DNA of 51,588 bases, taken from the NCBI GenBank assembly GCA_018651085.1, contig JABIEQ010000017.1, forward strand, positions 1-51,588, read 5' to 3'. How positions within the stretch are numbered: the first letter of the stretch is position 1; every line of letters starts with the position of its first letter. Positions 20,488 through 46,928 of this stretch are shown here, one piece after another. A program made the translations under genes and the position numbers. The notes under the pieces were generated by a model that saw nothing but the letters and a program-made list of their open reading frames with translations, did no database searches and was not told the origin of the DNA. This stretch comes from Candidatus Magasanikiibacteriota bacterium (GTDB lineage: Bacteria; Patescibacteriota; Patescibacteriia; Magasanikbacterales; UBA922).

Positions 20488-20516
20488 TTGTAAATATAGG
20501 GAAAAACGATTATACT
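20488..20516 (+). promoter_or_regulatory. Candidate sigma70 promoter for the 20551-27091 gene string
   Basis: TTGTAA is at 20488-20493, the spacer is 17 nt, and TATACT is at 20511-20516. Confidence 0.5.
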
Positions 20517-20550
20517 ACTAGTCAGTTTCTCTCTTTTTTACTTATTATCT

Positions 20551-21777
20551 ATGGATAAAAAACGCGTCTTTGCTGCTATTATTTTTGTCATACTTGTTGG
20601 CATTATTGGTTTCTTTTTATATCGACTCTTTTTTGCACAACCCGCACCACAAACTCCGCCGACACTTACTGAAGGTACTATTGATATTACAGACTTTCCG
20701 CAATCAGATGAACGGGTTTTTGATGAAACACAAGATCCGACGTCCTCTGATCTCCCTTTTTCTGATACTCGTGATGATCTTACTTCACGAACTCCGTCCG
20801 TTGGAGAAGAACCTGCTCGTATACGCCAAGTTGTTGATACTCGTATTATTTCTCCAGCTGTCGACAATAGAGGAAACGTTCGTTTCTATAATCAACAAGA
20901 TGGGAAATTTTACACCGTTGGACCTAATGATACTGTCTCAGCGCTTTCTTCTGAAATCTTTTTTAATGCAGAAAAAATAACCTGGTCCCCTACTACTGAC
21001 GAGTCTATTATTGAATATCCTGATCAATCAAAAATTTATTATAATTTTGATACGGGAAAACAAGTAACCCTTCCAAAACATTGGGAAGAGTTTTCTTTTT
21101 CTACTCAGGGAGACAAGATTGCTGCAAAAAGTGTTGGACTGTCTCCTGATAACCGTTGGCTTATTACAAGTGACCCTGATGGAAGAAATACAAAACGGGT
21201 TGAGGCTCTTGGAGAAAATGGAAATAAAGTTACTGTTGACTGGTCTCCTAATAACCAAGTCGTGGCACTATCACGAACAGGGGCTCCACTTGGTGCAGAA
21301 AGACAAGAAGTGCTCTTAGTTGGTCAACATGGAGAAAACTTTAGGTCCCTCGTTGTTGAAGGGCGTGACTTTAGATCAAAATGGTCAGCTGATGGAAAAC
21401 AACTTGTATACAGTGTATTTAATAGCAGAAATGGCTTCCGCCCAGAACTTTGGGTAGTGAATGCTGAAGGAGATAATATTGGAACAGGTCGGCGAACTCT
21501 TGGTGTAAATACTTGGGCTGATAAATGTACATTCCAAGATGAACGTTTTGTCTTTTGTGCTGTTCCTAGTTCTCTTGAAAGTGGATCTGGGTTTCAACCA
21601 AGTCTTGCTGATACCACTGCTGATAACATTTTTCGTATTGATCTTCAAACTGGTCTTAGATCACTTATTGATTTTGAAGGATCTCATATTGTTGACACTA
21701 TTTTTATGGGAGAAGACAATGACACGCTTTACTTTACTGATAAAATTGGCGGAGATCTTCTTCGTATTGATATTTAA
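20551..21777 (+). CDS. Membrane-anchored TolB-like beta-propeller (PD40 repeat) protein
   Basis: This is a 408-aa ORF with an N-terminal TM helix and repeated PD40-like motifs (SPDNRWLITSDPDGRN, WSPNNQVVALS, WSADGKQLVYS). Confidence 0.7.
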   Translation: MDKKRVFAAIIFVILVGIIGFFLYRLFFAQPAPQTPPTLTEGTIDITDFPQSDERVFDETQDPTSSDLPFSDTRDDLTSRTPSVGEEPARIRQVVDTRIISPAVDNRGNVRFYNQQDGKFYTVGPNDTVSALSSEIFFNAEKITWSPTTDESIIEYPDQSKIYYNFDTGKQVTLPKHWEEFSFSTQGDKIAAKSVGLSPDNRWLITSDPDGRNTKRVEALGENGNKVTVDWSPNNQVVALSRTGAPLGAERQEVLLVGQHGENFRSLVVEGRDFRSKWSADGKQLVYSVFNSRNGFRPELWVVNAEGDNIGTGRRTLGVNTWADKCTFQDERFVFCAVPSSLESGSGFQPSLADTTADNIFRIDLQTGLRSLIDFEGSHIVDTIFMGEDNDTLYFTDKIGGDLLRIDI

Positions 21778-21782
21778 TCCCT

Positions 21783-22424
21783 ATGATTAAACACTCTCAC
21801 TCTTTTCTCATTTTTATTCCAGCGATTCTTATTGCCATTTTTGCATTGTTTTTTCGCGTTGTGCAATATGAATCAATTAATAACGTTCCAGAAGAAGAAA
21901 CAGCGCTACCTGATGATTTTCGTATCCCTATTTATCCTGATGATCCTATCATTGGAAAACGTACCGCAAGAAAAACTATTATTGCTTTTGAAGACTTTGG
22001 TTGCGAAGGATGTCGAATACAGTCTGATATTCTTGAACGAATTATTGCAAAACATCCCGATGATGTGAAAGTTATTTGGAAGGGACTCCCCGTCACACAC
22101 TTCCCTTTCCCATCAAACGAAGCGCACCGATATAGTTACTGTGCGAATAAACAAGGGGAATTTGAACCCTTTACCAAACTTGCTTTTTCTCAGTTTGATA
22201 ATTTATCGCCAACAACACTTGATGCTATATCTGAAAAAGTTGAATTAAAGGACAAAAAGCTTCGTGAGTGCCTTGAAAATCCAGGAACAAATGCTCATAT
22301 TGATAGAACAGCACAACTTGCTACTATTCTTAATATACAGGCTGTACCTGCCATGTTTGTTGATTTTACTCAAGTGCAACCCCCTGTCACGGTTAGCGGA
22401 TGGGAAGCACTCTTAGGTTTATAA
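21783..22424 (+). CDS. DsbA-family thiol:disulfide oxidoreductase, membrane anchored
   Basis: This is a 213-aa ORF with an N-terminal TM helix, the CxxC motif FGCEGC in a thioredoxin-fold context, and a C-terminal VPAMFV motif. Confidence 0.75.
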   Translation: MIKHSHSFLIFIPAILIAIFALFFRVVQYESINNVPEEETALPDDFRIPIYPDDPIIGKRTARKTIIAFEDFGCEGCRIQSDILERIIAKHPDDVKVIWKGLPVTHFPFPSNEAHRYSYCANKQGEFEPFTKLAFSQFDNLSPTTLDAISEKVELKDKKLRECLENPGTNAHIDRTAQLATILNIQAVPAMFVDFTQVQPPVTVSGWEALLGL

Positions 22425-22428
22425 TCTT

Positions 22429-24450
22429 ATGCGCATTCGCATTCTTCTTTTTTGTGCAATACTCTTTACTGCGCTGAGTTTTTTTCCTGCTCCATCTTAT
22501 GCTGCATTAGAAAGTGATGGTGTTATTTATAATGAATTAAATTACCCTAACCCAGTTGATAAAGGGCTTATTTGGTTACCTGAACACGCTGTTAATACTG
22601 GTGGAACATACCCGGTGTTTGTTCTTATTCATGGGAAACTTCAACCTGATCGTCATAAACTTCGCTATTTAGGTAGGGGTGCTCAACCAATGGATAAAAC
22701 CATTAAACCCGTTATAGCAAGTGGTGACATCCCTCCGACAATTATTATATCCCCAATGGATTGGGCTGGATATCTTGAAGGATCTTTTTCTGTTAACCCA
22801 CGAATGCGAGGTCATACCAATGTTCCTTTCACCGTTGCTGAATTACTTGACCATGCTGAGCGTATTATCCAAACACATAAGCCAAATGTATCTATTGATA
22901 GAGATCAAGTCATTATAGCAGGGCATAGTAATGGTGCGGGAAGTCTTGATACTGCAGGTGTTTATGGCGCAGTGAAACATAATAACGGAATAATCTATAA
23001 AGGTGTTGGTATCCTTGATGGAGGAATATCTAAGGGGAGGGCGGAGATTCTCCTTGCTAATATGAGCAATTTTTCTTCAGTTGTAGCTATTGGCTCTCGA
23101 AATATTGGTGGATCAAACCAATGGATTCAATCTATTATGGGACCATCGGCTTCTGATTATGATAATTGTGCGGCACTTCGTCTTTACTCAAAATGTAAAG
23201 TACATAATAGTAAACCTTTTTATTATTTTCAAACTAAAACAACAGGTGAACACGATGCTACTCTCCAATATTTTGTAAAGCACGGACTCCCTCTTATTTT
23301 TGGAGATGGTGGTTCAGTTGGTTCTCCTTCAAAAAATGTTCGAGAAGAAATTAACGATATATTAAGTCAGCCTAAAACGGTTATTGGCATTCCAGGACTT
23401 GAATTTACGGGAATCGATGATTTACGCCAGGCTGTACAAGAAAATAATGGACAATTTTTCATTATTATTCCTTTTATTGGTGAATATATTGAGGCTGTAT
23501 ACCGCTATGCCCTTGCAGCAGCCTCTGTTGTTGCTATTATTATGATGATTGTAGCTGGACTTCAATGGATGACCTCAGCTGGAAGTTCCGATGGTATTCA
23601 AAAAGCAAAAGCCCGAATGACAAAAGCAGTTATTGGTCTTCTTATCGCTATGGGATCATATCTAATTTTATATACTATCAATCCTGAACTTATTAAGTTT
23701 AGGAATCTTCGTATCCAGTATGTTGAAGAAATTCCTCTTCCAACTTTCGTGCTTGATGGTGAATATGAATCTCAATCAGGTGAATTTGGTCCCTCTTCAA
23801 CGTATGATTCTTCTGTCCTACCAAATGATGGTGTTCCCCATTTTGGCCAATGCGATCCTAAGTGGGCAGAACAAGCCTGGGGTAGAGTAAATGGCTGTAC
23901 TTCTGGTAAAAATAATATTTGTAGTTCCGGGTGTGGGATCACTTCTTTATCAATGGTCCTCACGTCATACAGAGATAAAGTTGCCGATCCATACAAGGAC
24001 AAAACACAACCACCTCATATTGCTGATTGGACTGAAAAAAATAAATATAGAGGTATTGGTCCAGGGAGTCCTCCTGGGGCAACGTGTAATGGAACATCAT
24101 GGAAAGGAATGCAAGCAGTTAGCGAAGAGTATGGGATGAAAGCAAAGCTTCTGGGAAGTGTTACAGCGGCCACCCCCTATCTTGAAAAAAAACAACCCGT
24201 TGTGGTGCATGTCGCAAACCTCAACCGTAAAAAGAAATACGCATCAAAAGCTGACAGAAAAGCTGATACTACTTGTAAATTTACGTCTGGCGGTCACTAT
24301 ATTGTTCTTACTGGATATGATACGGCGACAGGTATTTACACGGTAAATGATCCCGGAAGAAATCGTCCACCTAACGAGAGAAAGCAGGCGACGAAAGCAT
24401 ATCTTGAAGATAACTGTCATGCTGCTGGCTTTCTTCTTGTCACTCCATAA
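22429..24450 (+). CDS. Secreted three-module protein: alpha/beta-hydrolase-like domain, pilin-like two-helix membrane module, C39-like/papain-fold cysteine peptidase domain
   Basis: It has a signal peptide ending PSYA-AL, a nucleophile elbow IIAGHSNGAG, and a central module shared with the next gene (23389-23724). The C-terminal part carries Cys/His motifs (CSSGCGITSLSMVL ... GGHYIVLTGYD ... VNDPG). Confidence 0.6.
   Translation: MRIRILLFCAILFTALSFFPAPSYAALESDGVIYNELNYPNPVDKGLIWLPEHAVNTGGTYPVFVLIHGKLQPDRHKLRYLGRGAQPMDKTIKPVIASGDIPPTIIISPMDWAGYLEGSFSVNPRMRGHTNVPFTVAELLDHAERIIQTHKPNVSIDRDQVIIAGHSNGAGSLDTAGVYGAVKHNNGIIYKGVGILDGGISKGRAEILLANMSNFSSVVAIGSRNIGGSNQWIQSIMGPSASDYDNCAALRLYSKCKVHNSKPFYYFQTKTTGEHDATLQYFVKHGLPLIFGDGGSVGSPSKNVREEINDILSQPKTVIGIPGLEFTGIDDLRQAVQENNGQFFIIIPFIGEYIEAVYRYALAAASVVAIIMMIVAGLQWMTSAGSSDGIQKAKARMTKAVIGLLIAMGSYLILYTINPELIKFRNLRIQYVEEIPLPTFVLDGEYESQSGEFGPSSTYDSSVLPNDGVPHFGQCDPKWAEQAWGRVNGCTSGKNNICSSGCGITSLSMVLTSYRDKVADPYKDKTQPPHIADWTEKNKYRGIGPGSPPGATCNGTSWKGMQAVSEEYGMKAKLLGSVTAATPYLEKKQPVVVHVANLNRKKKYASKADRKADTTCKFTSGGHYIVLTGYDTATGIYTVNDPGRNRPPNERKQATKAYLEDNCHAAGFLLVTP
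23389..23724 (+). repeat. Paralogous two-helix module, copy 1 (type IV secretion pilin-like)
   Basis: The module is IPGLEF...IIPFIGEYIEAVYRYALAAASVVAIIMMIVAGLQWMTSAGSSDGIQKAKARMTKAVIGLLIAMGSYLILYTINPELIKFRNLRIQYV. A 23-nt stretch (23680-23702) is identical to 24915-24937. Confidence 0.7.
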
Positions 24451-24461
24451 TCCATCTTTTC

Positions 24462-25754
24462 ATGCTCCGACATTTTTTTTCAATTCGAGGATACTTCCTT
24501 TCATCTATTCTAGCAGGGGTTCTTTTATTTACTTTATTTTTTCCTTTTGTTGTATATGGAGCTAGTACGGATCTCCCAACTGACAAGGCTCCTGTTTTTG
24601 ATCCACAACTAGAAATATCCATCCCTGGACTAGATTTCACAAGTGCTGAAGATGTCCGAGATACCGCACATATAGCAAAAGATGGCTCAACATACATTAC
24701 TATTCCTTTTCTTGGTGAATACATTTCTGCTATTTTTACCTATGGTGTTGCGGTGTCTACTATCCTTGCAATGTTTATGTGCCTTATTGGTGGATTGCAA
24801 TGGATGGTATCTCGAGGGGATGGTCCTGCCATTCAAGCAGCGAAAAGCCGCATGGTAAAAGCGATTATTGGGTTACTTTTAGCCTTGGGATCGTATACTA
24901 TATTATATACAATAAATCCTGAACTTATTAAGTTTAGAAACTTACGAGTGTTGTATGTACGGCAGATTGATTTATCGAAATATATTGTTGCTCTTGTTGG
25001 TGAAGGTGGTACGGTTACCCCTATCACAGACCCTAATGTCCATCATGCTAAACCTGGGGCAAAAAACCAAAAACTTACAGACGAGATGATGATTGACATT
25101 GCTGATAGGATGGGTATTGATAAATGTATTGTATTATCTACCATTAAAAAAGAATCTGGGGGTAATCTCCATCTCATTGGACACGACGAAAATTTTCCTG
25201 TCACTAGGCGTGGAAAAATTTGTCCAACGGTTAGCGCTCGAAAATCTTTTCTTTCTCATGGAAGAACCTTTAAAAATGTAGGGTTTACTCCAATTCCCCT
25301 TGACACATATAACCCTTGTATTCATAACAATTACAAAGTAAGCGGGAAAATTATTAAAAATGATGATAAATTTGACCTTAACAGTCCCCCCGAGTATGGT
25401 TTAGATTGGCGATATTCTCATGGAATTGGGTTTGGTCAAATTACCATTTTTCCTGATCCTAAAAAATCAAGTTGGAATAGCCAAATTAATGGGCCCAATG
25501 GTCCTGAATGGGCCCGTAAAATTATTGATCGATGGTACACTGTGAGTGATCTTTTAAATGCTGATAAACAACTTGAAGCGACTATTCTTTTAATGAATCA
25601 TGTATATAAAGCGGCCAAAGGTGATGTTGAAAACTTTTTTAAACGATATGCCGGTGGAGCAGCAGGGATTCCTCGAGCGATGAAATTTTATTGCTCTTGT
25701 CTAGACACCCATACTGATCTCCCCCGTGAACCAGCGTGTGTTAATTATAAATAA
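24462..25754 (+). CDS. Pilin-like two-helix membrane module fused to a lytic transglycosylase (SLT/GH23-like) domain
   Basis: It has an N-terminal signal/TM segment, then module copy 2 (24621-24959). The C-terminal domain has an SLT-like catalytic Glu-Ser (LSTIKKESGGN) and a YSHGIGFGQIT motif. Confidence 0.6.
   Translation: MLRHFFSIRGYFLSSILAGVLLFTLFFPFVVYGASTDLPTDKAPVFDPQLEISIPGLDFTSAEDVRDTAHIAKDGSTYITIPFLGEYISAIFTYGVAVSTILAMFMCLIGGLQWMVSRGDGPAIQAAKSRMVKAIIGLLLALGSYTILYTINPELIKFRNLRVLYVRQIDLSKYIVALVGEGGTVTPITDPNVHHAKPGAKNQKLTDEMMIDIADRMGIDKCIVLSTIKKESGGNLHLIGHDENFPVTRRGKICPTVSARKSFLSHGRTFKNVGFTPIPLDTYNPCIHNNYKVSGKIIKNDDKFDLNSPPEYGLDWRYSHGIGFGQITIFPDPKKSSWNSQINGPNGPEWARKIIDRWYTVSDLLNADKQLEATILLMNHVYKAAKGDVENFFKRYAGGAAGIPRAMKFYCSCLDTHTDLPREPACVNYK
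24621..24959 (+). repeat. Paralogous two-helix module, copy 2 (type IV secretion pilin-like)
   Basis: The module is IPGLDF...ITIPFLGEYISAIFTYGVAVSTILAMFMCLIGGLQWMVSRGDGPAIQAAKSRMVKAIIGLLLALGSYTILYTINPELIKFRNLRVLYV. It is collinear with copy 1. Confidence 0.7.
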
Positions 25755-25759
25755 TATTT

Positions 25760-27091
25760 GTGGCTAAAACATCTATCCTCTTTTCTTGTACATCTTGCGA
25801 TGCTCAGTTTCAAAAATGGACTGGGCGTTGTTTTGAATGTGGCAATTGGGGTTCTATCAAAGAACACTATTCTTCTGAATCGTCATCATCTCCAAAAACA
25901 ACTATTCCTCCTCTTGAGATGGCCACCCTTAGTGATATTTCTAAGGTGAATGTCTCTCGATTTTCTACACACCTCCCTGAATGTGACCGAGTATTCGGTG
26001 GTGGTATTGTTCCTGGAAGCCTTACCCTTCTTGGCGGAGAGCCTGGTATTGGTAAATCGACGCTTTCTTTACAACTTGCGACAGCTATTACTCCAACACT
26101 CTATATTTCAGGGGAAGAATCTACTGAACAGATATCTTTACGCGCAAAGAGACTTCAAGCTTCATCAAACCCTCTTAAATTAGTAAATGCGGTAAACATT
26201 GAACGTATTTGTGCAACAATTATTAAAGAATCTCCACAACTTGTTATTCTTGATTCGATTCAAACAGTGTATAGCCCTGAAGCGAGTGGAAGTTCAGGAA
26301 GCCCAAATCAAATCCGATCATGTACCGTGCAGTTAATGAGTGTTGCTAAAAAATATAATATTGCAATTATTATTATTGGGCATGTTACAAAAGACGGTGC
26401 TGTTGCAGGGCCAAAAACATTAGAACATCTTGTTGACACCGTATTATATCTTGAAGGAGATCGTCACCATAGCTATAGAATGCTCCGTGCAGTTAAGAAC
26501 AGATTTGGTTCAACTGACGAACTTGGAGTGTTTGATATGACAGAAACAGGTCTTCATAGCGTTGAGAACCCTTCAGCGGCACTTTTAGAAGAGCGTGGGG
26601 CTTCCATGCCAGGAAGCGTTGTCACGTGTCTTCTTGAAGGATCACGACCACTTCTCGTGGAAGTACAAGCACTGCTTACAAAGACAGCCTTTGGGTACCC
26701 ACAACGAAAAGCGAGTGGCTTTGATTTAAATAGACTGCATGTATTACTTGCGGTCCTTGAAAAACGAGCTGGTCTTTCTCTTACTCAATACGATGTCCAT
26801 ATTAATGTTGTTGGCGGCATAAAAGCGAATGAACCCGGTGCTGATCTGGCAGTTTGCCTTGCAGTAGCCAGCGCATATAAAGATGTCTCTTTAGGAAACG
26901 ACCTTGTCGTGTTTGGTGAAGTTGGCCTTGGTGGTGAAGTACGAAGTGTTACCCAAGCAGAAAAACGTCTGAAAGAATGCGCTCACCTAGGTATGAAACG
27001 CGTTATTCTTGGTCATAAAAAGAAATTGACATCAAATGACCTTACTATCATATCGGTAAAAAGCATACCTGAACTTATTAAACAGACATAA
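25760..27091 (+). CDS. radA: DNA repair protein RadA
   Basis: This is a 443-aa ORF with a GTG start. It has an N-terminal zinc ribbon (CTSCDAQFQKWTGRCFECGNW), Walker A (GGEPGIGKST), the KNRFG motif and a Lon-like C-terminal domain. Confidence 0.95.
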   Translation: MAKTSILFSCTSCDAQFQKWTGRCFECGNWGSIKEHYSSESSSSPKTTIPPLEMATLSDISKVNVSRFSTHLPECDRVFGGGIVPGSLTLLGGEPGIGKSTLSLQLATAITPTLYISGEESTEQISLRAKRLQASSNPLKLVNAVNIERICATIIKESPQLVILDSIQTVYSPEASGSSGSPNQIRSCTVQLMSVAKKYNIAIIIIGHVTKDGAVAGPKTLEHLVDTVLYLEGDRHHSYRMLRAVKNRFGSTDELGVFDMTETGLHSVENPSAALLEERGASMPGSVVTCLLEGSRPLLVEVQALLTKTAFGYPQRKASGFDLNRLHVLLAVLEKRAGLSLTQYDVHINVVGGIKANEPGADLAVCLAVASAYKDVSLGNDLVVFGEVGLGGEVRSVTQAEKRLKECAHLGMKRVILGHKKKLTSNDLTIISVKSIPELIKQT

Positions 27092-27149: not shown

Positions 27150-27460
27150 CTATGAAGAGGGTCGTCCGTGAGTATGACTCACGGACGACCCTCGTGACAG
27201 GACGAGTAGCTCTCACCCTTCCCGGGACGGCTTCGTCGATTTCTCCCTCGGGCGCATGCCCGTGTTTTTGGGATCATTGCTCCCCTGCTGAGCTTGAAGG
27301 CGTTGCCGCCGAAGAGCTCGAGACACCTTGAGATTATGGACTGTCACCGGATCCATCCAGAACCTCTCACGAGGCGTGGATCCTCTTGAGACTTTACCAC
27401 TCGTCGCCATCTATTCCTCCCTGAAGGAAACCCTACCACCATGGCTAAGTTTCAATATAC
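27150..27460 (-). ncRNA. Unclassified highly structured stable RNA (RNase P RNA-like candidate; may extend to about 27095)
   Basis: This is a strikingly GC-rich island with no credible ORF and a perfect consensus promoter immediately upstream on the minus strand. GNRA-capped hairpins are CCUC-GUGA-GAGG (27363-27374) and GGCG-GCAA-CGCC (27299-27310). A 9-bp long-range helix pairs 27201-27209 with 27397-27405; one of its pairs is G.U on the minus strand and would be A.C on the plus strand. A perfect 17-bp hairpin lies at 27157-27193. AAAGUC (27390-27395) and GGAGCAA (27277-27283) resemble RNase P RNA conserved regions, but I could not thread a full P1-P4 architecture. Confidence 0.55.
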
Positions 27461-41120: not shown

Positions 41121-41672
41121 TTATTGAAAGAAGAAGCCATTTACTAACCAATTATTTCCTCTTTTTTCTAACTCTACTCGAGCGTGCCTTTGCAACACTA
41201 CTCCTAATTCATCTGTCTCTTGTATCCCTACCGTCACGATAGCTTTGGCATTGGTTACTGACTCTATTTTTGTACTAATAACGTTTGTCGTAACTTCTTT
41301 GTATTCAGCACTCTCTTCTAATCGATTTGTGTCAACCCAAATAGCCATGCTATTTGTGACATACACCAATGCATCATCAATATGCTTATTCTTATTATTT
41401 GTTGAAAAACTTCTAAATCGTTCCGTAAAATCTTTTGCTCGTTGTCTAATATATCTTTCTGTTGGATCAACAGGTGTTTGATCTACTTCAATTGGGGCAA
41501 TGATTTCTTGAATAGTTTCTTGTGAAATAAATGGTTGATCTCCGGTTCCTCCATTCTCTTGATCTTCTAGTGTTTTGTCATCAGTACTTTTACCTAACAA
41601 TAAAAATAACGCAATAATAAGTATTATTAGTATAATTATTCCTCCTATAATACCTTTATGTTTTCTTTGCAT
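41121..41672 (-). CDS. Hypothetical bitopic membrane protein, last gene of the T4SS-like operon (VirB8-like architecture, unproven)
   Basis: This is a 183-aa ORF with a short basic N-terminus, one TM helix (IIGGIIILIILIIALFLLLG) and a roughly 140-aa extracytoplasmic alpha+beta domain. It starts 5 nt after the virB4-like stop. Confidence 0.55.
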   Translation of the reverse strand: MQRKHKGIIGGIIILIILIIALFLLLGKSTDDKTLEDQENGGTGDQPFISQETIQEIIAPIEVDQTPVDPTERYIRQRAKDFTERFRSFSTNNKNKHIDDALVYVTNSMAIWVDTNRLEESAEYKEVTTNVISTKIESVTNAKAIVTVGIQETDELGVVLQRHARVELEKRGNNWLVNGFFFQ

Positions 41673-41677
41673 ATATA

Positions 41678-43558
41678 TTATCTATTTCTACCTTTTCCTA
41701 ATACTTCTCGTTGATATTCTTCTCTTGCTTTTTCTATTTCTAATAACTGCTTTGGGTCGGAAGTGATTAATTGATCTTCAGTGTACGAAGCCACAACCTT
41801 TATGGCAGCGTGTTTAAGCCCTGCAAAAAATATCCCTTCCCCTACGGCACTTTCTAACAACAAATATTTCTCACCTTCAGTTAAAAAGAATGTCTTTTGA
41901 ATTAAATCAATTGCAGCTGGAGACTGACGAAGAAGCATTTGTAATGATGAATTGGTTACAATAGCTTTTCCATATGGAGAACGTAAAAAATCATTTACGT
42001 CTTGTGTAATAGTCGTTACTCCAAGATAATACTTTCTTGCTCTTTTTACGAGTGCGTAAATAAACTTAGCACTGTCTTCATGTGTCATGAGCCACCACGC
42101 CTCATCAATAATGAGTAGACGCTTTTTCTTTTCACTACGGACAATATTCCAAATATAGTTAATCACAGAATAAATAGCCATTGGTCGGAGTTCGTCTTCT
42201 AGATCACGTACACTAAAGACAACCAACTGATTATTCATGTTTACATTTGTAGGAGAATTAAATAATCCAGCGAATGTTCCTTCTGTATACTTTCGTAATT
42301 TTAATACCAAATCTCTGGCTCCCTCTAATCCTTCAAGAACATCGAGAAGATCTTGCATAATTGGAGGCTCTACTACAGACAAATCAGAATTTGCCGTAAT
42401 ATCCTTTTTTGCAAATGTTTCTAAAAGTGCTCTATCTAGTACAGAATCTTCTTCAGCACTTACTGAACCAAACATGATCCTTAAAAGCCCTTTTAAGGTG
42501 ATTACAGCACTTCTCACGACATCTTCTGTAGAAATCTGTCTTCCTACAGGACGTGGAAGATCAAAGGGGTTTACCTTACTTTCTGACGCGAGTGAAATAT
42601 TTACATATGTTCCACCAACAGCTTCACATAAATGCTCATATTCTTTTTCAGGATCAATAATGATAATTTCTGTCCCAAACATCAGACTCCGAAGTACTTC
42701 GAGTTTTACCATATACGATTTTCCAGCACCAGAGGTTGCAAATACTACCATGTTGGCATTTTGTAAAGAAAATCTATCAAAAAGAATGAGACTATTGTTG
42801 TGCCTATTAATTCCATACAGAACACCATCATCACTACTTAACTCAGATGACACAAATGGAAAAGATGATGCAATTGGACTTGAATTCATGTTAAAGGCAA
42901 TTGATAGTTCATCAATACCAATTGGTGCAGTTGATGTAAATCCTTGTTCTGCTTGAAAAAAGACTCCTTTTGTATAAATAAGTTTTGATCCAAATATATT
43001 TTCTACATCTTCTGATACTTTCTCTAATTCTTCTTTATCTTTTGCATAGACTGTGGCATAAAATGCAAACTGAAAAAAATGTTCAATTCCTTGGGTTAAA
43101 TCATCTCGCAATTGTTCAATGTCACGAAGCGCTGTTTCTCGTACAGGATCTCTTGGCGCTCCTTTTTCGGCATCAGACGAAAGTTGTGCTTCAAGTGCAC
43201 CTACTTTCTTTTTTAATTGCTTTAATATAATTGCTGACTTTACTGGATAGAAAAACATTGAAATATCAAGAGCAACATTGAGGTTTAAAATTGGGGTACT
43301 CCATCCAACAGAGATGTAACGTGGATATGAAATAACAAAAAATGTACGTAAAAATACGTCACCTAATTGGATGAAGCTTGATTCTACCCGAAACGCGGCA
43401 GGAGCAATGAGGTCTCTTACCGCCACTGTTCCTTCCCTATAGATGCGTTCTTCTTCTAGGGTAACGAGTTCTTCTACTTGTTCTTGTTCTTTTTTATTCG
43501 CGCCCTTTCCTTGAACAATTCCTCGTTTTTGTTGTCTATGTATTGGTTTAAATGCCAT
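41678..43558 (-). CDS. virB4: VirB4/TrbE-family type IV secretion ATPase
   Basis: This is a 626-aa ORF with Walker A (VVFATSGAGKSYMVK), Walker B (RLLIIDEAWWLM) and an N-terminal region typical of Gram-positive VirB4 homologues (LIAPAAFRVESSFIQLGDVFLRTFFVISYPRYISVGW). Confidence 0.85.
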   Translation of the reverse strand: MAFKPIHRQQKRGIVQGKGANKKEQEQVEELVTLEEERIYREGTVAVRDLIAPAAFRVESSFIQLGDVFLRTFFVISYPRYISVGWSTPILNLNVALDISMFFYPVKSAIILKQLKKKVGALEAQLSSDAEKGAPRDPVRETALRDIEQLRDDLTQGIEHFFQFAFYATVYAKDKEELEKVSEDVENIFGSKLIYTKGVFFQAEQGFTSTAPIGIDELSIAFNMNSSPIASSFPFVSSELSSDDGVLYGINRHNNSLILFDRFSLQNANMVVFATSGAGKSYMVKLEVLRSLMFGTEIIIIDPEKEYEHLCEAVGGTYVNISLASESKVNPFDLPRPVGRQISTEDVVRSAVITLKGLLRIMFGSVSAEEDSVLDRALLETFAKKDITANSDLSVVEPPIMQDLLDVLEGLEGARDLVLKLRKYTEGTFAGLFNSPTNVNMNNQLVVFSVRDLEDELRPMAIYSVINYIWNIVRSEKKKRLLIIDEAWWLMTHEDSAKFIYALVKRARKYYLGVTTITQDVNDFLRSPYGKAIVTNSSLQMLLRQSPAAIDLIQKTFFLTEGEKYLLLESAVGEGIFFAGLKHAAIKVVASYTEDQLITSDPKQLLEIEKAREEYQREVLGKGRNR

Positions 43559-43563
43559 AGCGA

Positions 43564-44253
43564 TCAGTAGATATCTTCAACTTGAATCTTTTCTACATTT
43601 TGTAGTTGTTGTGTTAAGGCAACATCTGGGTTATATGTCCCGTAATAAAGTTCAATCAATGCTTGGGTGTCTAACTCTGCTACTTGTAACCCTAGACTTT
43701 CTAACCCTCCTGCAACGTGCCGTGTCCGTACCTCAAGATCATGTCTTCTTTGCTCAAATCTTTTCTCTTTTAATCGAATGGTAAATGATGGCTTTAATAC
43801 TTCTTTAAATCTGGAAAAGAATCCTTTCTTTTTATTTGATAATGGGTCATATGGCACTACCACATAAAACTTTTTTGTCATGATTTGCCCGATATCTACA
43901 AGTTCTTGTACAAAAGCTCTATAATCTGCAATCTGTACACGAAGTAATTCATTTGCTTGGTTTCTTTCTAGCTGTATGAGTTGCTCAAGATATGGTTTTA
44001 TTTGTAATTGACGAGATTGCACTACAATCTGTAATGGAAAATCAATAGAATTCAAAAACCCAACATATGACGATATGATTGCGTTTTGTTCGTCTTCTGA
44101 TTTTAAGGCAAAATTAATACTTGATACTAATAGTACTCCTCGTACGGTTCCATCCTTTAGTACCACCATACCATCACGTATTTCTGCTATTGGAAGGTGC
44201 GCTTGTGTACTTGGCCTTCCTTTTTTTGCCTTTTTTGCTTTTTTACTTTTCAT
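43564..44253 (-). CDS. Hypothetical T4SS-operon protein (229 aa) with a VirB4 N-terminal-domain-like motif
   Basis: It has a Lys-rich N-terminus followed by LPIAEIRDGMVVLKDGTVRGVLLVSSINFALKSEDEQNAIISSYVGFLNSIDFPLQIVVQSR. As I recall the pattern, this resembles the start of VirB4/TrbE proteins. It has no P-loop. Confidence 0.5.
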   Translation of the reverse strand: MKSKKAKKAKKGRPSTQAHLPIAEIRDGMVVLKDGTVRGVLLVSSINFALKSEDEQNAIISSYVGFLNSIDFPLQIVVQSRQLQIKPYLEQLIQLERNQANELLRVQIADYRAFVQELVDIGQIMTKKFYVVVPYDPLSNKKKGFFSRFKEVLKPSFTIRLKEKRFEQRRHDLEVRTRHVAGGLESLGLQVAELDTQALIELYYGTYNPDVALTQQLQNVEKIQVEDIY

Positions 44254-44280
44254 ACATGCTTCGACTAGTATACCATGCTT

Positions 44281-44715
44281 TTATCTCAAATCATTGTCGG
44301 GTCGGTAATACCCACCCGTGTTGACTACTAATGCGAGATCTTTAATTCTTGCTCTACGAACTTTTTTTCTTTCAACCACCACAACGTCTTCTTTTATTCC
44401 TTTTTTTCGTAAATAATCTAATTCTTTTTTAGAATATTCTTTTCTCCAAATTCGTAACCCTGGTTTTGTTTTTGTTTGAATAATATTTAATATAAAATAA
44501 TGAAATGCTTGCCCTTTTACTTTAGCAAAAGCAAACAATAAGGCAATTCCTCCGATAAAAAGGGCTAGTGTTAGAAAAAGAGCTGTATCAGCGAATCTAT
44601 ACACAATAAAAATAATAATCCCAGCGATAAGCATGATCAAAAACTGTCGCACTGTAATAGGTCCAAGGATTTTATCTTCTACTTCAATAAATTGTGGCAC
44701 GACAAACTGCTGCAT
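44281..44715 (-). CDS. PrgI-family (VirB3-like) small membrane protein
   Basis: This is a 144-aa ORF with the N-terminal motif VPQFIEVEDKILGPITVRQF followed by two TM helices, as in the PrgI family. It lies immediately upstream of the VirB4-related genes. Confidence 0.6.
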   Translation of the reverse strand: MQQFVVPQFIEVEDKILGPITVRQFLIMLIAGIIIFIVYRFADTALFLTLALFIGGIALLFAFAKVKGQAFHYFILNIIQTKTKPGLRIWRKEYSKKELDYLRKKGIKEDVVVVERKKVRRARIKDLALVVNTGGYYRPDNDLR

Positions 44716-44716
44716 A

Positions 44717-45892
44717 CTATAACCTAATCGATTTATTGATATCTACAATAACATGGTGTTCTTCGTTACTTAATCCCTCTTGATTATTTAGTACTTCTTT
44801 TAATGTTATTCCTTCGTGTAATGCCTGTGAAATACTTTCTTGATACGCACTATAAAGTGGGCTTCTTTCCCATGCAAGCACTCCTTTTACTAAAAGAAGG
44901 AATGATTCTTTTTTTAGAGTATCAAATTTTGATAGTATCATTTTTTTGCTTGCTTGTGGTGTTGTTCCTAATCTTCTGAAATCTTTTAGTGTAATGTGCC
45001 CTAATTCATCAATTGGCCCAATACTTGCCTTTTCTCTTGGTTGCGGTTTGGGTGGCCTAATGTCATGCATCATTGGTTTAATATCAATCGCTGGAATCAC
45101 AAAAGCATGATCTTTTCTGTTTGGGATAAGTTTTTGAACTTGTGGAGTGGATTTTTTGGGAGTTGGAGTTGCCTTTTTAGGTGATTTTTTTTTAAAGGCT
45201 TCCTCTGGTACCTGAAGTTCACTATGGATGGCACTAATGACCTTTACCGCGTCCTCTTTTGTAAGGCCGACTCCCCCATGGGTGATATCTTCTGTAAGAT
45301 ACTCTTTAATTTGCTCGTCACTTCTTATCTCTTTTATCCTTGACTCGATCAGAGAACCTAATCGACTCACAACACTTTTATCGACTGAAATAGATATGGT
45401 CTTAAGCACTTTATTTACCTGATCTTGCCTTCCTGACACCGCTCCCTTTCCTTTTTCTATGTCTACCTCTTTATGAAAAGTATCATCTAATAATGATTTA
45501 TGATCATCTTCGCCCCAATGAGTATCTTTTGCGGCTGCTTGTTCTTCAAACACCTCAGTGTTTGGTGTGGTTGTACTTATTGCAGTTGAGGCACTTTTTG
45601 TAAGTGCTACTGGTTGAAGTATCACTAATGCTTTCTTTTCAATAGGCTCTTTTGTCTTTTGTGGCGGCACTGAGAATGAAGCAACTGGAGCTCCGGCTTG
45701 TTCTTCATGATGGGTATGTATTGCCCTGTTTTGAGGTAAGAGGTCTTCTTCTTTTTCTTCTTTTTTCACTGCTTTATATGACGCAAATTCAGCCATGGTC
45801 ATACGCACCATGGATCCATCTTTTTTCTTTACAGGAATTGTTCGTTCATGTGCTTTTACCATACAAATTAGTTCAAGAGGTCTTGATTCCAT
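44717..45892 (-). CDS. Hypothetical protein (391 aa; an alternative ATG at 45862 removes the overlap)
   Basis: This is a soluble, partly low-complexity (Pro/Lys/Thr-rich) ORF inside the T4SS-like operon. I recognise no family. Confidence 0.5.
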   Translation of the reverse strand: MESRPLELICMVKAHERTIPVKKKDGSMVRMTMAEFASYKAVKKEEKEEDLLPQNRAIHTHHEEQAGAPVASFSVPPQKTKEPIEKKALVILQPVALTKSASTAISTTTPNTEVFEEQAAAKDTHWGEDDHKSLLDDTFHKEVDIEKGKGAVSGRQDQVNKVLKTISISVDKSVVSRLGSLIESRIKEIRSDEQIKEYLTEDITHGGVGLTKEDAVKVISAIHSELQVPEEAFKKKSPKKATPTPKKSTPQVQKLIPNRKDHAFVIPAIDIKPMMHDIRPPKPQPREKASIGPIDELGHITLKDFRRLGTTPQASKKMILSKFDTLKKESFLLLVKGVLAWERSPLYSAYQESISQALHEGITLKEVLNNQEGLSNEEHHVIVDINKSIRL

Positions 45893-46920
45893 ACAAATCC
45901 ACCTTTTTCTTCGTCAAAATAATACAAATCCCGAATTGCATCGTTGTTATATTGTTCTGCAAGCTCATCAAGATGAGAAAGCACTTCTTCTAACATATTA
46001 ATGCCGGGCTGTTTTGTCTTGAAAAATCGTTCTTCTATACTTGCTCGAATTTCTTTCATTGATGGGGCTTGTTGTGGTGCTTTTACTTCTTCTATGACAT
46101 TAATTGGTATTTTTTTAGTAACCGCTTGAGCTTCTTTTTGTTCTTCTTTTGTATTATTTGGAATATCTTGTTCTTCAGATTCCTCAAACAAAGAAAGCTT
46201 TGGATCTCCAAATATCACATCTTCATCAATGTGCGTTAGTAAAAATGGACCTTGTAATGTTTCAAGGTATTCATCTATAACAACCTCAATATCTCCATCT
46301 TCATAAAAAAACTTCAATAATTCAAGAAAGGCAACAACATTTTGTGTCTGTTTTTTTTCTTCTACAAATACGAGTTCTTGATCCTTGTGATATAGCCACC
46401 CTTCTATATGTGCATAGATATTTGCAAGCTCAATATTTGTTTTATTTTTTTTCGTCGCATACTGTTTTGCAATTTCAGAAATTGTTGGACTGTTTTCTAT
46501 TGTTGGATTTATCCGTACTGATCGTTTGAGAAATTCACTTTTGAGTTTATTAAAGTATGTATGAAGATCAGGGAGACTAATGCTATGCCTGTGAAGATAA
46601 CTCAGAAGATATTCTTCAACAGGGATGTCTAGCATGAATGCGGTTGGTAATTGATAGGTAAAAATATCAATAAATTCTTCCTTATCGTGCCAAAGTACTG
46701 TTTTCCATGAGATAGATACATACCATTTCCAATAAGAATCAAAATAGGTGGCAATTACTTTTGGATCAAATGATTTTGATACAAAAAAATGATGAAGAGC
46801 CACGAATATGCCTTCGATACTTCCCTCTGGATCATGAAAAAGAATAGATAGTTTTCTACTATACTCTTCTTTTTGATCTTCGGTGAGATCCTTAGGTTGT
46901 GTGAACATGGTGATGTCCAT
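45868..46920 (-). CDS. Hypothetical protein (350 aa, acidic, soluble)
   Basis: The ORF lies 8 nt downstream of the giant VirB6-like gene on the same strand. I recognise no family. Confidence 0.55.
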   Translation of the reverse strand: MDITMFTQPKDLTEDQKEEYSRKLSILFHDPEGSIEGIFVALHHFFVSKSFDPKVIATYFDSYWKWYVSISWKTVLWHDKEEFIDIFTYQLPTAFMLDIPVEEYLLSYLHRHSISLPDLHTYFNKLKSEFLKRSVRINPTIENSPTISEIAKQYATKKNKTNIELANIYAHIEGWLYHKDQELVFVEEKKQTQNVVAFLELLKFFYEDGDIEVVIDEYLETLQGPFLLTHIDEDVIFGDPKLSLFEESEEQDIPNNTKEEQKEAQAVTKKIPINVIEEVKAPQQAPSMKEIRASIEERFFKTKQPGINMLEEVLSHLDELAEQYNNDAIRDLYYFDEEKGGFVWNQDLLN

Positions 46921-46928
46921 ACGTCTTC

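What the first reader, a model, noticed from the sequence alone, without database searches (positions are those of the whole stretch)
22429..25754. Two adjacent exo-enzymes share a conserved pilin-like two-helix module fused to different cell-wall/hydrolase domains
Seen in the sequence: residues encoded by 23389-23724 and 24621-24959 are collinear paralogues. The shared pattern is IPGL[ED]F ... IPF[IL]GEYI ... first hydrophobic helix ... GLQWM.S.G ... AK.RM.KA.IGLL.A.GSY.ILYTINPELIKFRNLR. A 23-nt stretch is identical between them (23680-23702 = 24915-24937). In the first protein the module sits between an alpha/beta-hydrolase-like domain (GHSNG elbow) and a Cys/His papain-fold domain (SSGCG ... 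GGHY ... NDPG). In the second it is N-terminal to an SLT/GH23-like lytic transglycosylase domain (KKESGGN, GIGFGQIT). Established knowledge: a helix-loop-helix module with this spacing is the architecture of VirB2/TrbC-type T4SS pilins, and T4SSs normally need a VirB1-like transglycosylase. Inference: these are enzymes displayed on, or anchored through, a pilin-like module. They could supply the pilin and hydrolase functions missing from the 41-51 kb operon, or be surface-displayed weapons that breach a host cell wall. I do not know of characterised examples of a pilin-like module fused to enzymes.
Basis: partly seen in the sequence, partly recalled or inferred. Interest (0 to 1): 0.8.

Follow-up and report, generated by a model that had tools for sequence, protein, structure and literature searches.

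The report
Pilin-anchored cell-wall hydrolases in a CPR bacterium
Two neighbouring genes of an ultra-small (Patescibacteria) bacterium each join a secretion-system pilin-like membrane hairpin to cell-wall-cutting enzymes, and they belong to a very large family, not described in the papers I could search, in which the same carrier bears many different wall-cutting enzymes.

Summary
ORF A (22429-24450, 673 aa) and ORF B (24462-25754, 430 aa) share a ~125-residue module (52% identity, E 1e-42).

The module has a signal peptide upstream, two membrane helices and a short positively charged loop, so both flanks face outward. It belongs to the Patescibacterial "T4SS pilin" family PF18895. Direct Pfam scores are sub-threshold, but a profile of 119 family members scores 117 and 112 bits.

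- **A** carries a CE1-like esterase (Ser167/Asp197/His275) and a Peptidase_C39_2 domain (Gln474/Cys502/His623/Asp641).
- **B** carries a GH23/goose-lysozyme-like domain (invariant Glu231).

This is one instance of a huge family: 17,443 cluster representatives at E<=1e-3 in a search with full-length A, so that total also counts hits to A's enzyme domains alone.

The full-length module always occupies one chromosomal slot: ClpB, beta-propeller protein, DsbA-like, fusion(s), RadA. The enzyme there varies (SLT-like, amidase, M23, M15/VanY, NlpC/P60, CHAP, GH18, C39_2).

In other Patescibacteria the same pilin-propeller pair lies just downstream of VirB4. This window's T4SS operon has neither a pilin nor a hydrolase.

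Most likely these are pilin-carried wall cutters working with the T4SS. Sequence similarity to canonical VirB2/TrbC was not shown, and pilus display is untested.

The parts
20551..21777 (+). prop408: N-terminal membrane helix plus a TolB/PD40-like beta-propeller. First gene of the putative operon and the conserved partner of the pilin module.
   Evidence: There is no Pfam hit and only a weak NCBIfam TolB-propeller hit. Faint PD40/Tricorn_N hits are on record for orthologues. It is present in 26 of 27 slot loci and adjacent to the pilin gene in 18 of 26 other pilin loci, most of which carry VirB4. A terminator-like site at 20464-20479 and promoter-like sites at 20488-20548 lie just upstream.
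21783..22424 (+). DsbA/MdbA-like thiol-disulfide oxidoreductase, membrane anchored. It ends 4 nt before ORF A.
   Evidence: Pfam Thioredoxin_4 4.3e-16 and DSBA 6.7e-8. It sits directly upstream of the fusion gene in all slot loci but L027, and its end overlaps the fusion gene's called start in L004-L006. It belongs to a CPR-enriched family discussed in PMC6744442.
22429..24450 (+). ORF A, 673 aa: signal peptide, CE1-like esterase, pilin module, Peptidase_C39_2.
22429..22503 (+). A signal peptide (aa 1-25, ...PSYA|A).
   Evidence: Hydrophobic segment 1-24 followed by an AxA-like site. Homologues P0184, P0188 and P0190 have the same N-terminal leader.
22507..23328 (+). A N-terminal alpha/beta-hydrolase (CE1-like esterase) domain. 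HG68-69 is the oxyanion motif. The triad is Ser167 (GHSNG, codon 22927), Asp197 (23017) and His275 (23251).
   Evidence: A profile of 6 homologues hits the feruloyl-esterase domain of XynZ (1jjf, E 6.8e-7) and esterase 3doh (2.5e-4). Invariant columns are shown and residue positions.
23368..23736 (+). A pilin module (aa 314-436). TM1 is aa 356-385 (23494-23583). The cytoplasmic loop is WMTSAGSSDGIQKAKARM. TM2 is aa 397-419 (23617-23685).
   Evidence: BLASTP. PF18895 scores 20.4 bits, below the 26.6 cut-off. A 119-pilin HMM scores 116.6 bits.
23830..24354 (+). A C-terminal Peptidase_C39_2 papain-fold domain with Gln474, Cys502 (23932), His623 (24295) and Asp641 (24349).
   Evidence: Pfam PF13529 E 4.6e-17, 63.4 bits against a cut-off of 24. 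Cys and His are conserved in 33/33, Asp in 31/33 and Gln in 31/33 homologues.
24462..25754 (+). ORF B, 430 aa: signal peptide, pilin module, GH23/goose-lysozyme-like domain.
24600..24989 (+). B pilin module (aa 47-176). TM1 is aa 87-116 (24720-24809) and TM2 is aa 131-152 (24852-24917).
   Evidence: BLASTP. PF18895 scores 19.7 bits. The 119-pilin HMM scores 111.5 bits. The AF2 model shows two long antiparallel helices, 82-116 and 121-151, with short flanking strands on either side.
25074..25751 (+). B C-terminal lysozyme-superfamily (GH23/LT_GEWL-like) domain. Catalytic-type Glu231 lies in KKESGG (codon 25152). Other motifs are GHDEN 240-244, GIGFGQIT 321-328 and Y..G 395-398.
   Evidence: E231 is invariant in 24 homologues. 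The domain model has pLDDT 88.9. BFVD top hits are LT_GEWL/SLT proteins with probabilities 0.99, 0.94 and 0.98. The PDB hit list is dominated by lysozymes and lytic transglycosylases, all with E>0.9. Weak profile hits to g-type lysozyme and EmtA fall at the catalytic helix.
25760..27091 (+). radA, the last gene of the tightly packed block. It starts 5 nt after B and marks the downstream edge of the conserved slot.
   Evidence: Pfam and synteny.
41121..51050 (-). T4SS operon (context). It holds a VirB6/TrbL-like 1373-aa protein, 350-aa and 391-aa proteins, PrgI/VirB3-like, a TraC-like N-part, a VirB4 P-loop part and a 183-aa membrane protein. No pilin and no hydrolase are present.
   Evidence: Pfam, ORFs, pilin HMM negative, and the same gene set on longer public contigs.

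Best explanation
A and B are exported cell-wall-cleaving enzymes built on a common carrier. The carrier is a module of the Patescibacterial VirB2-like "T4SS pilin" family (PF18895).

**Shown**
- A Sec-type signal peptide and two hydrophobic helices, joined by a short net-positive loop, give an N-out/C-out hairpin. Every enzyme domain therefore lies outside the membrane, in the wall compartment: the esterase and the C39_2 peptidase of A, and the GH23-like glycosidase of B.
- Catalytic residues are intact and conserved.
- The upstream DsbA-like oxidoreductase and a membrane-anchored beta-propeller protein are constant partners.

**Inferred**
- The module is not just an anchor. It is more conserved than free-standing pilins.
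- It keeps the pilin family's extracytoplasmic motifs.
- It is paired with the same beta-propeller gene that follows the pilin gene in VirB4 operons of other Patescibacteria.
- I therefore propose that it places the enzymes into the T4SS pilin pool or assembly site. There they would cut peptidoglycan locally.
- That would make them the functional equivalent of the VirB1-type hydrolase, and the only pilin-family proteins found for the T4SS at 41-51 kb within this window, whose operon lacks both.
- The kind of bond cut seems not to matter, because the enzyme in this slot is swapped freely between genomes. That fits a hole-making role better than a specific wall-maturation step.
- Whether the wall cut is the cell's own, the host's, or both is open.
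For: **Module and family**
- Module paralogy: 52% identity, E 1e-42.
- Family membership: 235 hits to the module profile, and most of the 120 listed are PF18895 proteins of 68-215 aa, several named pilin by their sources. An HMM of 119 of them scores A at 116.6 bits and B at 111.5 bits. 69 of 97 close relatives hit PF18895 at E<=1e-3.
- Topology and the AF2 helical hairpin.

**Enzymes**
-.

**Family scale**
- 17,443 representatives at E<=1e-3, and the best 150 are almost all 300-1028 aa.
- 197 of 199 have a C-terminal flank of at least 100 aa, and 110 also have an N-terminal domain.

**Cargo census**
- C39_2, Amidase_2, SLT, GDSL, VanY/M15, NlpC/P60, M23, CHAP, YkuD, GH18.

**Conserved slot with varying enzyme**
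-.

**T4SS link**
- Core pilin matches lie 1-3 kb downstream of VirB4 in at least 17 loci.
- The prop408 family is adjacent to the pilin gene in 18 of 26 such loci.
- Pilin-YkuD and pilin-PKD-SLT_3 fusions lie inside T4SS operons.
- The window's T4SS operon has no pilin or hydrolase.

**Literature**
- These pilins are essential and T4SS-encoded in Southlakia (PMC10633639).
- Most Patescibacteria with VirB2-like pilins lack a recognisable VirB1 (PMC12102498).
Against: - A and B are 16 kb from the T4SS operon. They sit in a block that reads like housekeeping (ClpB, DsbA-like, RadA, RecG) and is syntenic across many genomes.
- Direct Pfam scores for PF18895 are below the gathering cut-off: 20.4 and 19.7 bits against 26.6.
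- No significant similarity to genuine VirB2/TrbC was found. hhalign probability is 3.4%. The PDB profile search gave nothing. Foldseek with the full-length model returned only generic helical hairpins.
- No PF18895 protein has been shown experimentally to form a pilus.
- Some cargo types are typical of a cell's own wall maturation, namely D,D-carboxypeptidase-like VanY/M15 and L,D-transpeptidase YkuD.
- A 250-300 aa globular domain on one or both ends of a pilin is hard to fit into a tightly packed helical filament, except at low abundance or at the tip.
- The rest of this genome was not available, so free-standing pilin genes elsewhere cannot be excluded.
Confidence: 0.55

Rival explanations
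1. Housekeeping autolysins with an exapted anchor. The pilin-derived hairpin serves only to tether the cell's own wall-remodelling enzymes to the outer face of the membrane in a monoderm that would otherwise lose them. Under this reading there is no functional connection with the T4SS or any filament.
For: - The slot is conserved among housekeeping genes and lies apart from VirB4 in all 27 slot loci.
- Cargo includes VanY/M15 carboxypeptidase-like and YkuD domains, and amidases typical of growth and division.
- The block looks like one operon ending with radA.
- Similarity to canonical VirB2 is not demonstrable.
Against: - A mere anchor need not keep about 45-55% identity and conserved extracytoplasmic motifs (IPGLxF, IPFLGEY, YTINPELV) across genomes while the enzyme is replaced.
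- A specific housekeeping step should keep a specific enzyme. Yet glycosidases, amidases, endopeptidases and esterases substitute for one another at the same slot.
- The partner propeller gene is T4SS-linked elsewhere.
- Pilin-hydrolase fusions occur inside T4SS operons.
Confidence: 0.27
2. Armed pilus. The fusions are minor or tip subunits that are polymerised into an extracellular T4SS pilus. They carry the enzymes to the host cell surface, where they breach the host's wall for epibiotic feeding or effector delivery. This is a VirB2-class counterpart of the modular type IV pilins.
For: - Both ends of the hairpin face outward.
- Swapping of the enzyme head on a constant carrier resembles polymorphic effectors and could track host wall chemistry.
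- In type IV pili, modular pilins with bulky grafted modules are assembled into the pilus and are modelled to sit at its tip (PMC8179133).
- T4SS pilins are essential for epibiotic growth in Southlakia.
- An EndoU-toxin-like giant protein is encoded divergently from the T4SS operon.
Against: - There is no evidence that PF18895 proteins form filaments.
- Many family members carry domains on both termini (110 of 199), which is sterically demanding.
- No free-standing major pilin was found in the window.
- The host of this lineage is unknown.
Confidence: 0.15
3. The shared segment is a generic double-transmembrane anchor, or a holin-like piece of a prophage lysis cassette, and its likeness to pilins is accidental.
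For: - Direct Pfam scores are sub-threshold.
- Foldseek with the whole model returns unrelated helical hairpins.
Against: - The family HMM scores 112-117 bits, and most of the listed module homologues are PF18895 proteins.
- There are no phage genes nearby, and the chromosomal synteny is stable across many species.
- The conserved residues are largely outside the membrane-spanning parts.
Confidence: 0.03

Closest known systems
Patescibacterial VirB2-like T4SS pilins (Pfam PF18895; Wang et al. 2023 PMC10633639; Quinonero-Coronel et al. 2025 PMC12102498)
   Same: Same sequence family. Same layout: signal peptide, PLPG/IPGL motif, two helices, short basic loop, YTINP(E/D)LV tail. Same phylum. Same partner gene, the beta-propeller protein.
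   Different: Described pilins are small (about 100-200 aa) and highly variable (mean 25% identity within arrays). They are encoded in arrays near virB4. Here the module is embedded in 430-673 aa enzymes, is much more conserved (about 45-55% identity between genomes) and sits in a separate conserved slot. The fusions are not mentioned in either paper.
Modular type IV pilins (e.g. Streptococcus sanguinis PilB/PilC; Raynaud et al. 2021, PMC8179133)
   Same: Same design principle. A small pilin carrier has a bulky functional module grafted on, with hundreds of architectures, and some carry peptidase-type modules.
   Different: They are an unrelated protein class. Type IV pilins have a class III signal peptide and a single N-terminal helix, and are assembled by PilB/PilC-type machines. 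The present module is a two-helix hairpin of the T4SS (VirB2-like) kind. It often carries domains on both ends, and its cargo is almost exclusively wall-cleaving enzymes.
VirB1-type wall hydrolases of monoderm conjugation systems (PrgK of pCF10, TraG of pIP501; cited in PMC12102498, and CwlT of ICEBs1 from my own knowledge)
   Same: Membrane-anchored, often two-domain peptidoglycan hydrolases that combine a glycosidase with a Cys/His peptidase. They open the wall for a T4SS. Across its two genes, the A+B pair combines an SLT-like glycosidase with a papain-fold peptidase.
   Different: Those enzymes use a plain N-terminal anchor, are encoded in the T4SS operon and keep SLT plus CHAP/NlpC-P60. 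Here the anchor is a pilin-family hairpin, the genes lie outside the operon, and the enzyme type varies widely.
Polymorphic toxins and modular phage endolysins
   Same: A constant targeting or carrier part with freely exchanged catalytic heads drawn from the same pool of wall-hydrolase families: Amidase_2, M15, M23, NlpC/P60, CHAP, SLT, GH18.
   Different: No immunity gene was identified beside A or B, though none was searched for, and there is no phage context. The carrier is a membrane hairpin, not a secretion or binding domain.

Membership tests
PF18895 T4SS_pilin (Patescibacterial VirB2-like pilins) | Pfam model score at or above the gathering cut-off (26.6 bits) | tested here: not met
   A scores 20.4 bits and B scores 19.7 bits. 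Most close relatives of the module hit the model at E<=1e-3 (69 of 97), and some individually checked ones exceed the cut-off.
PF18895 T4SS_pilin (Patescibacterial VirB2-like pilins) | Significant similarity to a profile built from accepted family members | tested here: met
   An HMM of 119 proteins of 68-215 aa, most of them PF18895-annotated, scores A at 116.6 bits (aa 351-438) and B at 111.5 bits (aa 76-179), and nothing else in the window. The module profile retrieves 235 proteins, and most of those listed are PF18895.
PF18895 T4SS_pilin (Patescibacterial VirB2-like pilins) | Signal peptide followed by two hydrophobic helices joined by a short basic loop | tested here: met
   Hydropathy and charge count and the AF2 helices 82-116 and 121-151 in B.
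PF18895 T4SS_pilin (Patescibacterial VirB2-like pilins) | Small free-standing protein encoded next to virB4 | tested here: not met
   The module is embedded in 673-aa and 430-aa enzymes 16 kb from virB4. Its partner propeller gene is VirB4-linked in other lineages.
PF18895 T4SS_pilin (Patescibacterial VirB2-like pilins) | Polymerises into a T4SS pilus | not testable with these tools
   No experiment exists even for the free-standing members. They are called predicted pilins.
TrbC/VirB2 (PF04956), canonical T4SS pilins | Profile or structural similarity to genuine VirB2/TrbC | tested here: not met
   hhalign of 22 modules against 7 genuine VirB2/TrbC proteins gives probability 3.4% and E 0.013, covering TM1-loop-TM2 only. 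The PDB profile search found no pilin. Foldseek with the full-length model found no pilin. PF04956 hits only 2 of 97 relatives, at E about 7e-4. A module-only structural search could not be run.
TrbC/VirB2 (PF04956), canonical T4SS pilins | Helix-loop-helix hairpin with both ends outside | tested here: met
   This feature alone is not specific.
VirB1-like T4SS wall hydrolases of monoderms | Membrane-tethered peptidoglycan-hydrolase domain(s) with intact catalytic residues | tested here: met
   Glu231 in B. Gln474, Cys502, His623 and Asp641 in A. Anchor topology. Enzyme activity was not assayed.
VirB1-like T4SS wall hydrolases of monoderms | [quoted passage not shown] | tested here: not met
   Location is not met in this window. 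It is met for the relatives P0177 (L008/L009) and L033. The requirement for function is not testable here.
GH23 / SLT lytic transglycosylase-lysozyme superfamily (B, C-terminal domain) | Pfam SLT-family model match | tested here: not met
   No SLT, SLT_2 or SLT_3 hit at E<=1. hhalign to an SLT-positive relative aligns only the catalytic helix, with probability 9.5%.
GH23 / SLT lytic transglycosylase-lysozyme superfamily (B, C-terminal domain) | Lysozyme-like fold with the catalytic Glu at the end of the first core helix (E-S motif) | tested here: met
   E231-S232 is invariant or nearly invariant. BFVD top hits are LT_GEWL/SLT proteins with probabilities 0.99, 0.94 and 0.98 and E 7e-3 to 4e-2. 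PDB hits are mostly lysozymes and lytic transglycosylases, but all have E>0.9. Weak g-type lysozyme and EmtA matches fall at the same helix.
Peptidase_C39_2 (PF13529) (A, C-terminal domain) | Model score above cut-off and conserved Cys/His | tested here: met
   63.4 bits against a cut-off of 24, E 4.6e-17. Cys502 and His623 are conserved in 33/33 homologues.
Alpha/beta-hydrolase, CE1-like esterases (A, N-terminal domain) | Profile similarity plus Ser-Asp-His triad in canonical order with an HG oxyanion motif | tested here: met
   1jjf at E 6.8e-7 and 3doh at 2.5e-4. HG68-69, Ser167, Asp197 and His275 are conserved, and one homologue has Asn in place of Ser. The substrate is unknown.
Modular type IV pilins (IPR012902) | Class III signal peptide and a single N-terminal alpha-1 helix | tested here: not met
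   The leader is a Sec-type signal peptide and the module has two helices. The resemblance is one of design only.

The most novel reading that the evidence does not exclude
Across Patescibacteria, VirB2-like pilins serve as interchangeable carriers for wall-degrading enzymes. A membrane beta-propeller partner and a dedicated disulfide oxidoreductase help load them onto a T4SS filament or its base. This would give the episymbiont an "armed pilus" that drills through its own wall and the host's wall, with enzyme heads exchanged to match host wall chemistry. It would be a new functional class of T4SS component. It would also explain why most Patescibacteria seem to lack VirB1.
Probability: 0.2. 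Interest if true: 0.9.

Novelty: new variant of a known kind. Interest (0 to 1): 0.68.

Why it matters
The T4SS of Patescibacteria is essential for epibiotic growth in the one system tested, and it is unusual among monoderm systems in having VirB2-like pilins (PMC10633639, PMC12857230). The 2025 survey concluded that most genomes with these pilins lack a VirB1-type hydrolase (PMC12102498).

A family of thousands of proteins that fuse this pilin module directly to peptidoglycan hydrolases offers a concrete candidate for the missing wall-opening function. The family is held in a fixed slot with a beta-propeller partner that is T4SS-linked elsewhere. It also offers a possible means of acting on the host wall.

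It gives testable handles in cultivable Saccharibacteria: the module, the propeller partner and the DsbA-like gene. It extends the modular-pilin idea from type IV pili to the unrelated T4SS pilin class.

If instead these are simply the lineage's autolysins, the finding still identifies how these ultra-small monoderms tether and diversify their wall-remodelling enzymes.

Tried and rejected
- **Full-length A word-index search**. It returned only 4 proteins, limited by the candidate filter. The exhaustive search was needed.
- **phmmer of A against PDB**. Nothing useful.
- **Foldseek of the full-length B model against PDB**. Not significant, because the multi-domain model swamps the signal. The domain-only model against PDB gave the right superfamily but all E>0.9. 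Only the viral library gave high-probability hits.
- **Profile of B orthologues against PDB**. Only weak g-type lysozyme and EmtA matches.
- **hhalign of the B domain against the SLT-positive relative P0170**. Only the catalytic helix aligned.
- **Direct tests for canonical VirB2/TrbC homology**. Negative.
- **The search for related loci with the 22-module alignment**. It was repeated with the 2-sequence alignment, which biases the result toward close relatives sharing ILYTINPE.
- **Exact-match look-up of the VirB6-like protein**. Failed, probably because of a different called start. The 350-aa neighbour worked.
- **NCBIfam**. No family for A or B.
- **Recent gene conversion as the cause of the 23-nt identity.** Rejected: 63% nucleotide identity overall.
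- **Prophage lysis cassette.** Rejected: stable chromosomal synteny and no phage genes.
- **Literature searches for pilin-enzyme fusions of this class**. No description found.

Full report
**What is in the sequence**

The region holds two co-directional ORFs separated by 11 nt. ORF A is 22429-24450 (673 aa) and ORF B is 24462-25754 (430 aa). BLASTP of one against the other gives a single strong segment, A 314-442 against B 47-176. It has 52% identity and E 1e-42, and nothing else of note.

It lies in the 16-residue identical peptide ILYTINPELIKFRNLR. Over the whole module the DNA is only 63% identical, so these are old paralogues. A six-frame HMM search finds only these two copies in the window.

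**What the module is**

Directly against Pfam, both proteins hit T4SS_pilin (PF18895) below its cut-off, at 20.4 and 19.7 bits against 26.6. They also give weak hits to DUF6112.

Searching the 5.8-billion-protein collection with the two-module profile returned 235 proteins. Most of the 120 listed are PF18895-annotated proteins of 68-215 aa from Patescibacteria, and several are named "pilin" by their sources. An HMM built from 119 of these scores A at 116.6 bits and B at 111.5 bits. Family membership is therefore secure, even though the curated model under-scores these two.

Hydropathy shows the following:
- A cleavable-looking signal peptide.
- Two hydrophobic helices (A 356-385 and 397-419; B 87-116 and 131-152).
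- A short loop with net charge +2 between them.

By the positive-inside rule this gives an N-out/C-out hairpin, so all flanking domains are extracytoplasmic. The AlphaFold2 model of B (pLDDT 81.8) shows two long antiparallel helices, with short strands predicted in both flanks.

**Test against canonical pilins**

- A profile of 22 modules against all PDB sequences found no pilin.
- Foldseek with the whole B model found only generic hairpins.
- hhalign against an alignment of seven genuine VirB2/TrbC proteins, fetched from MPF_T plasmids, gave probability 3.4% over TM1-loop-TM2 only.

PF04956 itself hits 2 of 97 relatives at about 7e-4. Homology to canonical VirB2 is therefore not shown by sequence. 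The "pilin" label rests on the Pfam family, on genomic linkage to virB4 in other lineages, and on published structure-based annotation (PMC10633639; PMC12102498).

**The enzyme domains**

*A, N-terminal domain.* It has homologues in P0184, P0188 and P0190, plus two distant ones. Their profile hits the CE1 feruloyl-esterase domain of XynZ (1jjf, E 6.8e-7) and esterase 3doh. HG68-69, Ser167 in GHSNG, Asp197 and His275 are conserved.

*A, C-terminal domain.* It is Peptidase_C39_2 (63.4 bits, E 4.6e-17). Gln474, Cys502, His623 and Asp641 are conserved in 31-33 of 33 homologues.

*B, C-terminal domain.* It has no Pfam hit. Its orthologues keep an invariant Glu231 in KKESGG, plus GHDEN, GIGxGQxT and a Y(N/A)AG-type motif. 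A domain-only model (pLDDT 88.9) gives BFVD top hits that are LT_GEWL/SLT lytic transglycosylases, at probabilities 0.99, 0.94 and 0.98. The PDB hit list is dominated by lysozymes and lytic transglycosylases, but at non-significant E-values. I accept a GH23-like fold. Whether it acts as a hydrolase or a lytic transglycosylase is open.

**The family**

Searching with full-length B found orthologues in Magasanikbacteria-type genomes. It also found many proteins that share only the module and carry other enzymes: M15_4, VanY, M15, Amidase_2, M23, NlpC/P60, YkuD, SLT, GDSL and others.

An exhaustive phmmer search with full-length A against 1.84 billion cluster representatives gave these counts:
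- 17,443 hits at E<=1e-3.
- 3,804 hits at E<=1e-10.
- The best 150 are almost all 300-1028 aa proteins with the module inside.

Because the query was the whole protein, these totals also include hits to the esterase or C39_2 domain alone.

Of 199 long module-bearing proteins, 197 have at least 100 aa after the module and 110 also have at least 100 aa before it. Four have three or four tandem modules. In the ten proteins checked, the recognisable enzyme lies C-terminal to the module.

A Pfam census of 97 relatives gives the following:

| Pfam family | Proteins (of 97) |
|---|---|
| C39_2 | 43 |
| Amidase_2 | 10 |
| SLT | 7 |
| GDSL | 6 |
| VanY | 4 |
| NlpC/P60 | 3 |
| M15_4 | 3 |
| CHAP | 1 |

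A's esterase-plus-module unit recurs with C39_2, VanY or GDSL behind it. The fused module is far more conserved (about 40-55% identity between genomes) than free pilins, which average 25% identity within arrays (PMC12102498).

**Genomic context**

The window is a Patescibacterial chromosome of 37% GC, full of housekeeping genes. The same organism occurs in marine MAGs and a Saanich Inlet metagenome.

A and B sit in a tight block: prop408 (membrane helix plus TolB/PD40-like propeller), a DsbA-like oxidoreductase, A, B and radA. Terminator- and promoter-like sites lie before prop408.

Every locus I could fetch that carries the full-length module has the same order. This covers 7 loci from exact-protein look-ups, representing 5 distinct genomes, and 19 GTDB species:
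- ClpB, then a variable gene, then prop408, then DsbA-like.
- One or two fusion genes.
- RadA, then RecG.

The enzyme in the slot differs between genomes. I found VanY/M15, Amidase_2, SLT-like, M15_4, M23, CHAP, GH18, NlpC/P60 with C39_2, and several domains with no Pfam match.

By contrast, matches to the pilin core alone come from Saccharibacteria, Paceibacterota, and Yanofsky-, Sung-, Portnoy- and Moranbacteria. These lie 1-3 kb downstream of VirB4.

An iterated profile of prop408 finds a family member next to the pilin gene in 18 of 26 such loci. It is usually directly after the pilin, as in L048 and L039. Inside those T4SS operons there are also pilin fusions: pilin-YkuD (L008/L009), pilin-PKD-SLT_3 (L033) and pilin plus a 420-aa Cys-rich domain (L039).

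The window's own T4SS operon (41121-51050, minus strand) holds a VirB6-like protein, two unknowns, PrgI, a split VirB4 and a 183-aa membrane protein. It has no pilin and no hydrolase. Longer public contigs show nothing more upstream.

**Interpretation**

*Shown:* two exported, membrane-hairpin-tethered enzymes with intact active sites. Their tether is a PF18895-family module. They are members of a very large Patescibacterial family with exchangeable wall-cleaving heads, held in a fixed slot with a propeller protein and a DsbA-like enzyme.

*Inferred:* the module couples the enzymes to the T4SS, through the pilin pool, the assembly site or a filament. The reasons are:
- It is conserved beyond what an anchor needs.
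- Its partner gene is T4SS-linked elsewhere.
- Related fusions sit in T4SS operons.
- This organism's T4SS operon has neither a pilin nor a hydrolase.

Free substitution of glycosidases, amidases, peptidases and esterases at one slot argues for "make a hole in the wall" rather than one specific maturation reaction.

I put this reading at about 0.55, a plain-anchor housekeeping reading at about 0.27, true pilus display against the host wall at about 0.15, and an accidental resemblance at about 0.03.

**Comparison with what is known**

The module's family and its T4SS association are published, but only for small free pilins. Modular pilins are well described for type IV pili (PMC8179133), but that is an unrelated protein class. 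Monoderm VirB1-type hydrolases are membrane-anchored two-domain enzymes, but they have a plain anchor and sit inside the operon.

I found no paper describing VirB2-class pilin-enzyme fusions. The consecutive Pfam accessions for T4SS_pilin (PF18895) and the lysozyme-like SLT_3 (PF18896), which co-occur in L033, may mean the curators saw such a protein. I rate this a new variant of a known kind.

**Limits**
- No genome-wide paralogue count was possible for this organism.
- The genome scan was seeded with ILYTINPE and IPGL[ED]F, so it favours close relatives.
- The jackhmmer propeller profile was run on a small local set, so its E-values are relative to that set.
- No module-only structural comparison could be run.
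- No activity, localisation or interaction data exist.

Noticed in passing
window 20551-21777; L008, L031, L033, L037, L039-L044, L046, L048-L052: The prop408 family (N-terminal membrane helix plus TolB/PD40-like beta-propeller, about 370-420 aa) forms a conserved gene pair with PF18895 pilins across Patescibacteria. It lies directly after the pilin in VirB4 operons, and before DsbA and the pilin fusion in the ClpB-RadA slot. It looks like an unrecognised T4SS-associated component.
   Followed up: partly
window 27150-27445: An intergenic stretch of about 300 nt after radA has 57% GC against a 37% background, a perfect 17-bp hairpin and very stable predicted folds on both strands. There is no Rfam match even at E<=1, no tRNA or tmRNA, and no blastn match in syntenic loci. 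It may be an unannotated structured RNA.
   Followed up: partly
window 51271-51588 (partial); L060 959-5605: Divergently from the T4SS operon lies a 1548-aa protein with Transglut_core and EndoU_bacteria (toxin-type nuclease) hits, followed by a 143-aa gene. Only its first ~100 codons are in the window. It is a candidate T4SS-associated toxin with its immunity gene.
   Followed up: no
window 21783-22424 and slot loci L004-L006: The DsbA/MdbA-like gene ends 4 nt before ORF A here, and its end overlaps the fusion gene's called start in L004-L006. This suggests translational coupling. The exported domains of A and B hold 9 and 6 cysteines, and B orthologues often carry an extra Cys-rich N-terminal domain.
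   Followed up: partly
P0198, P0292, P0306, P0318: Single polypeptides carry three or four tandem pilin modules. P0292 ends in an SLT domain.
   Followed up: no
window 41678-44253: VirB4 is split into two genes, a 229-aa TraC-like N-terminal part and a 626-aa P-loop part. The same split is seen in all Patescibacterial T4SS loci fetched.
   Followed up: no
window 46929-51050: The VirB6/TrbL-like protein is 1373 aa. About 330 aa of polytopic membrane domain is followed by about 1000 aa of highly charged, Lys/Glu-rich sequence.
   Followed up: no
window 19278-20426: A 382-aa ORF between ClpB and prop408 has a long Glu/Lys low-complexity run and C-terminal hydrophobic segments. The gene at this position is present but not conserved in sequence or length (113-437 aa) in the syntenic loci.
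   Followed up: no
L011-L013, L015, L020-L024, L026: Several GTDB-set MAGs titled "uncultured Gammaproteobacteria bacterium" have the Magasanikbacteria-type synteny and pilin fusions. The titles look wrong.
   Followed up: no
P0141, P0189, P0121: In public assemblies of this organism, gene A appears as a 593-aa piece plus an 89-aa piece, and gene B as a 401-aa piece. These are probably contig breaks. Both genes are intact in the window.
   Followed up: partly
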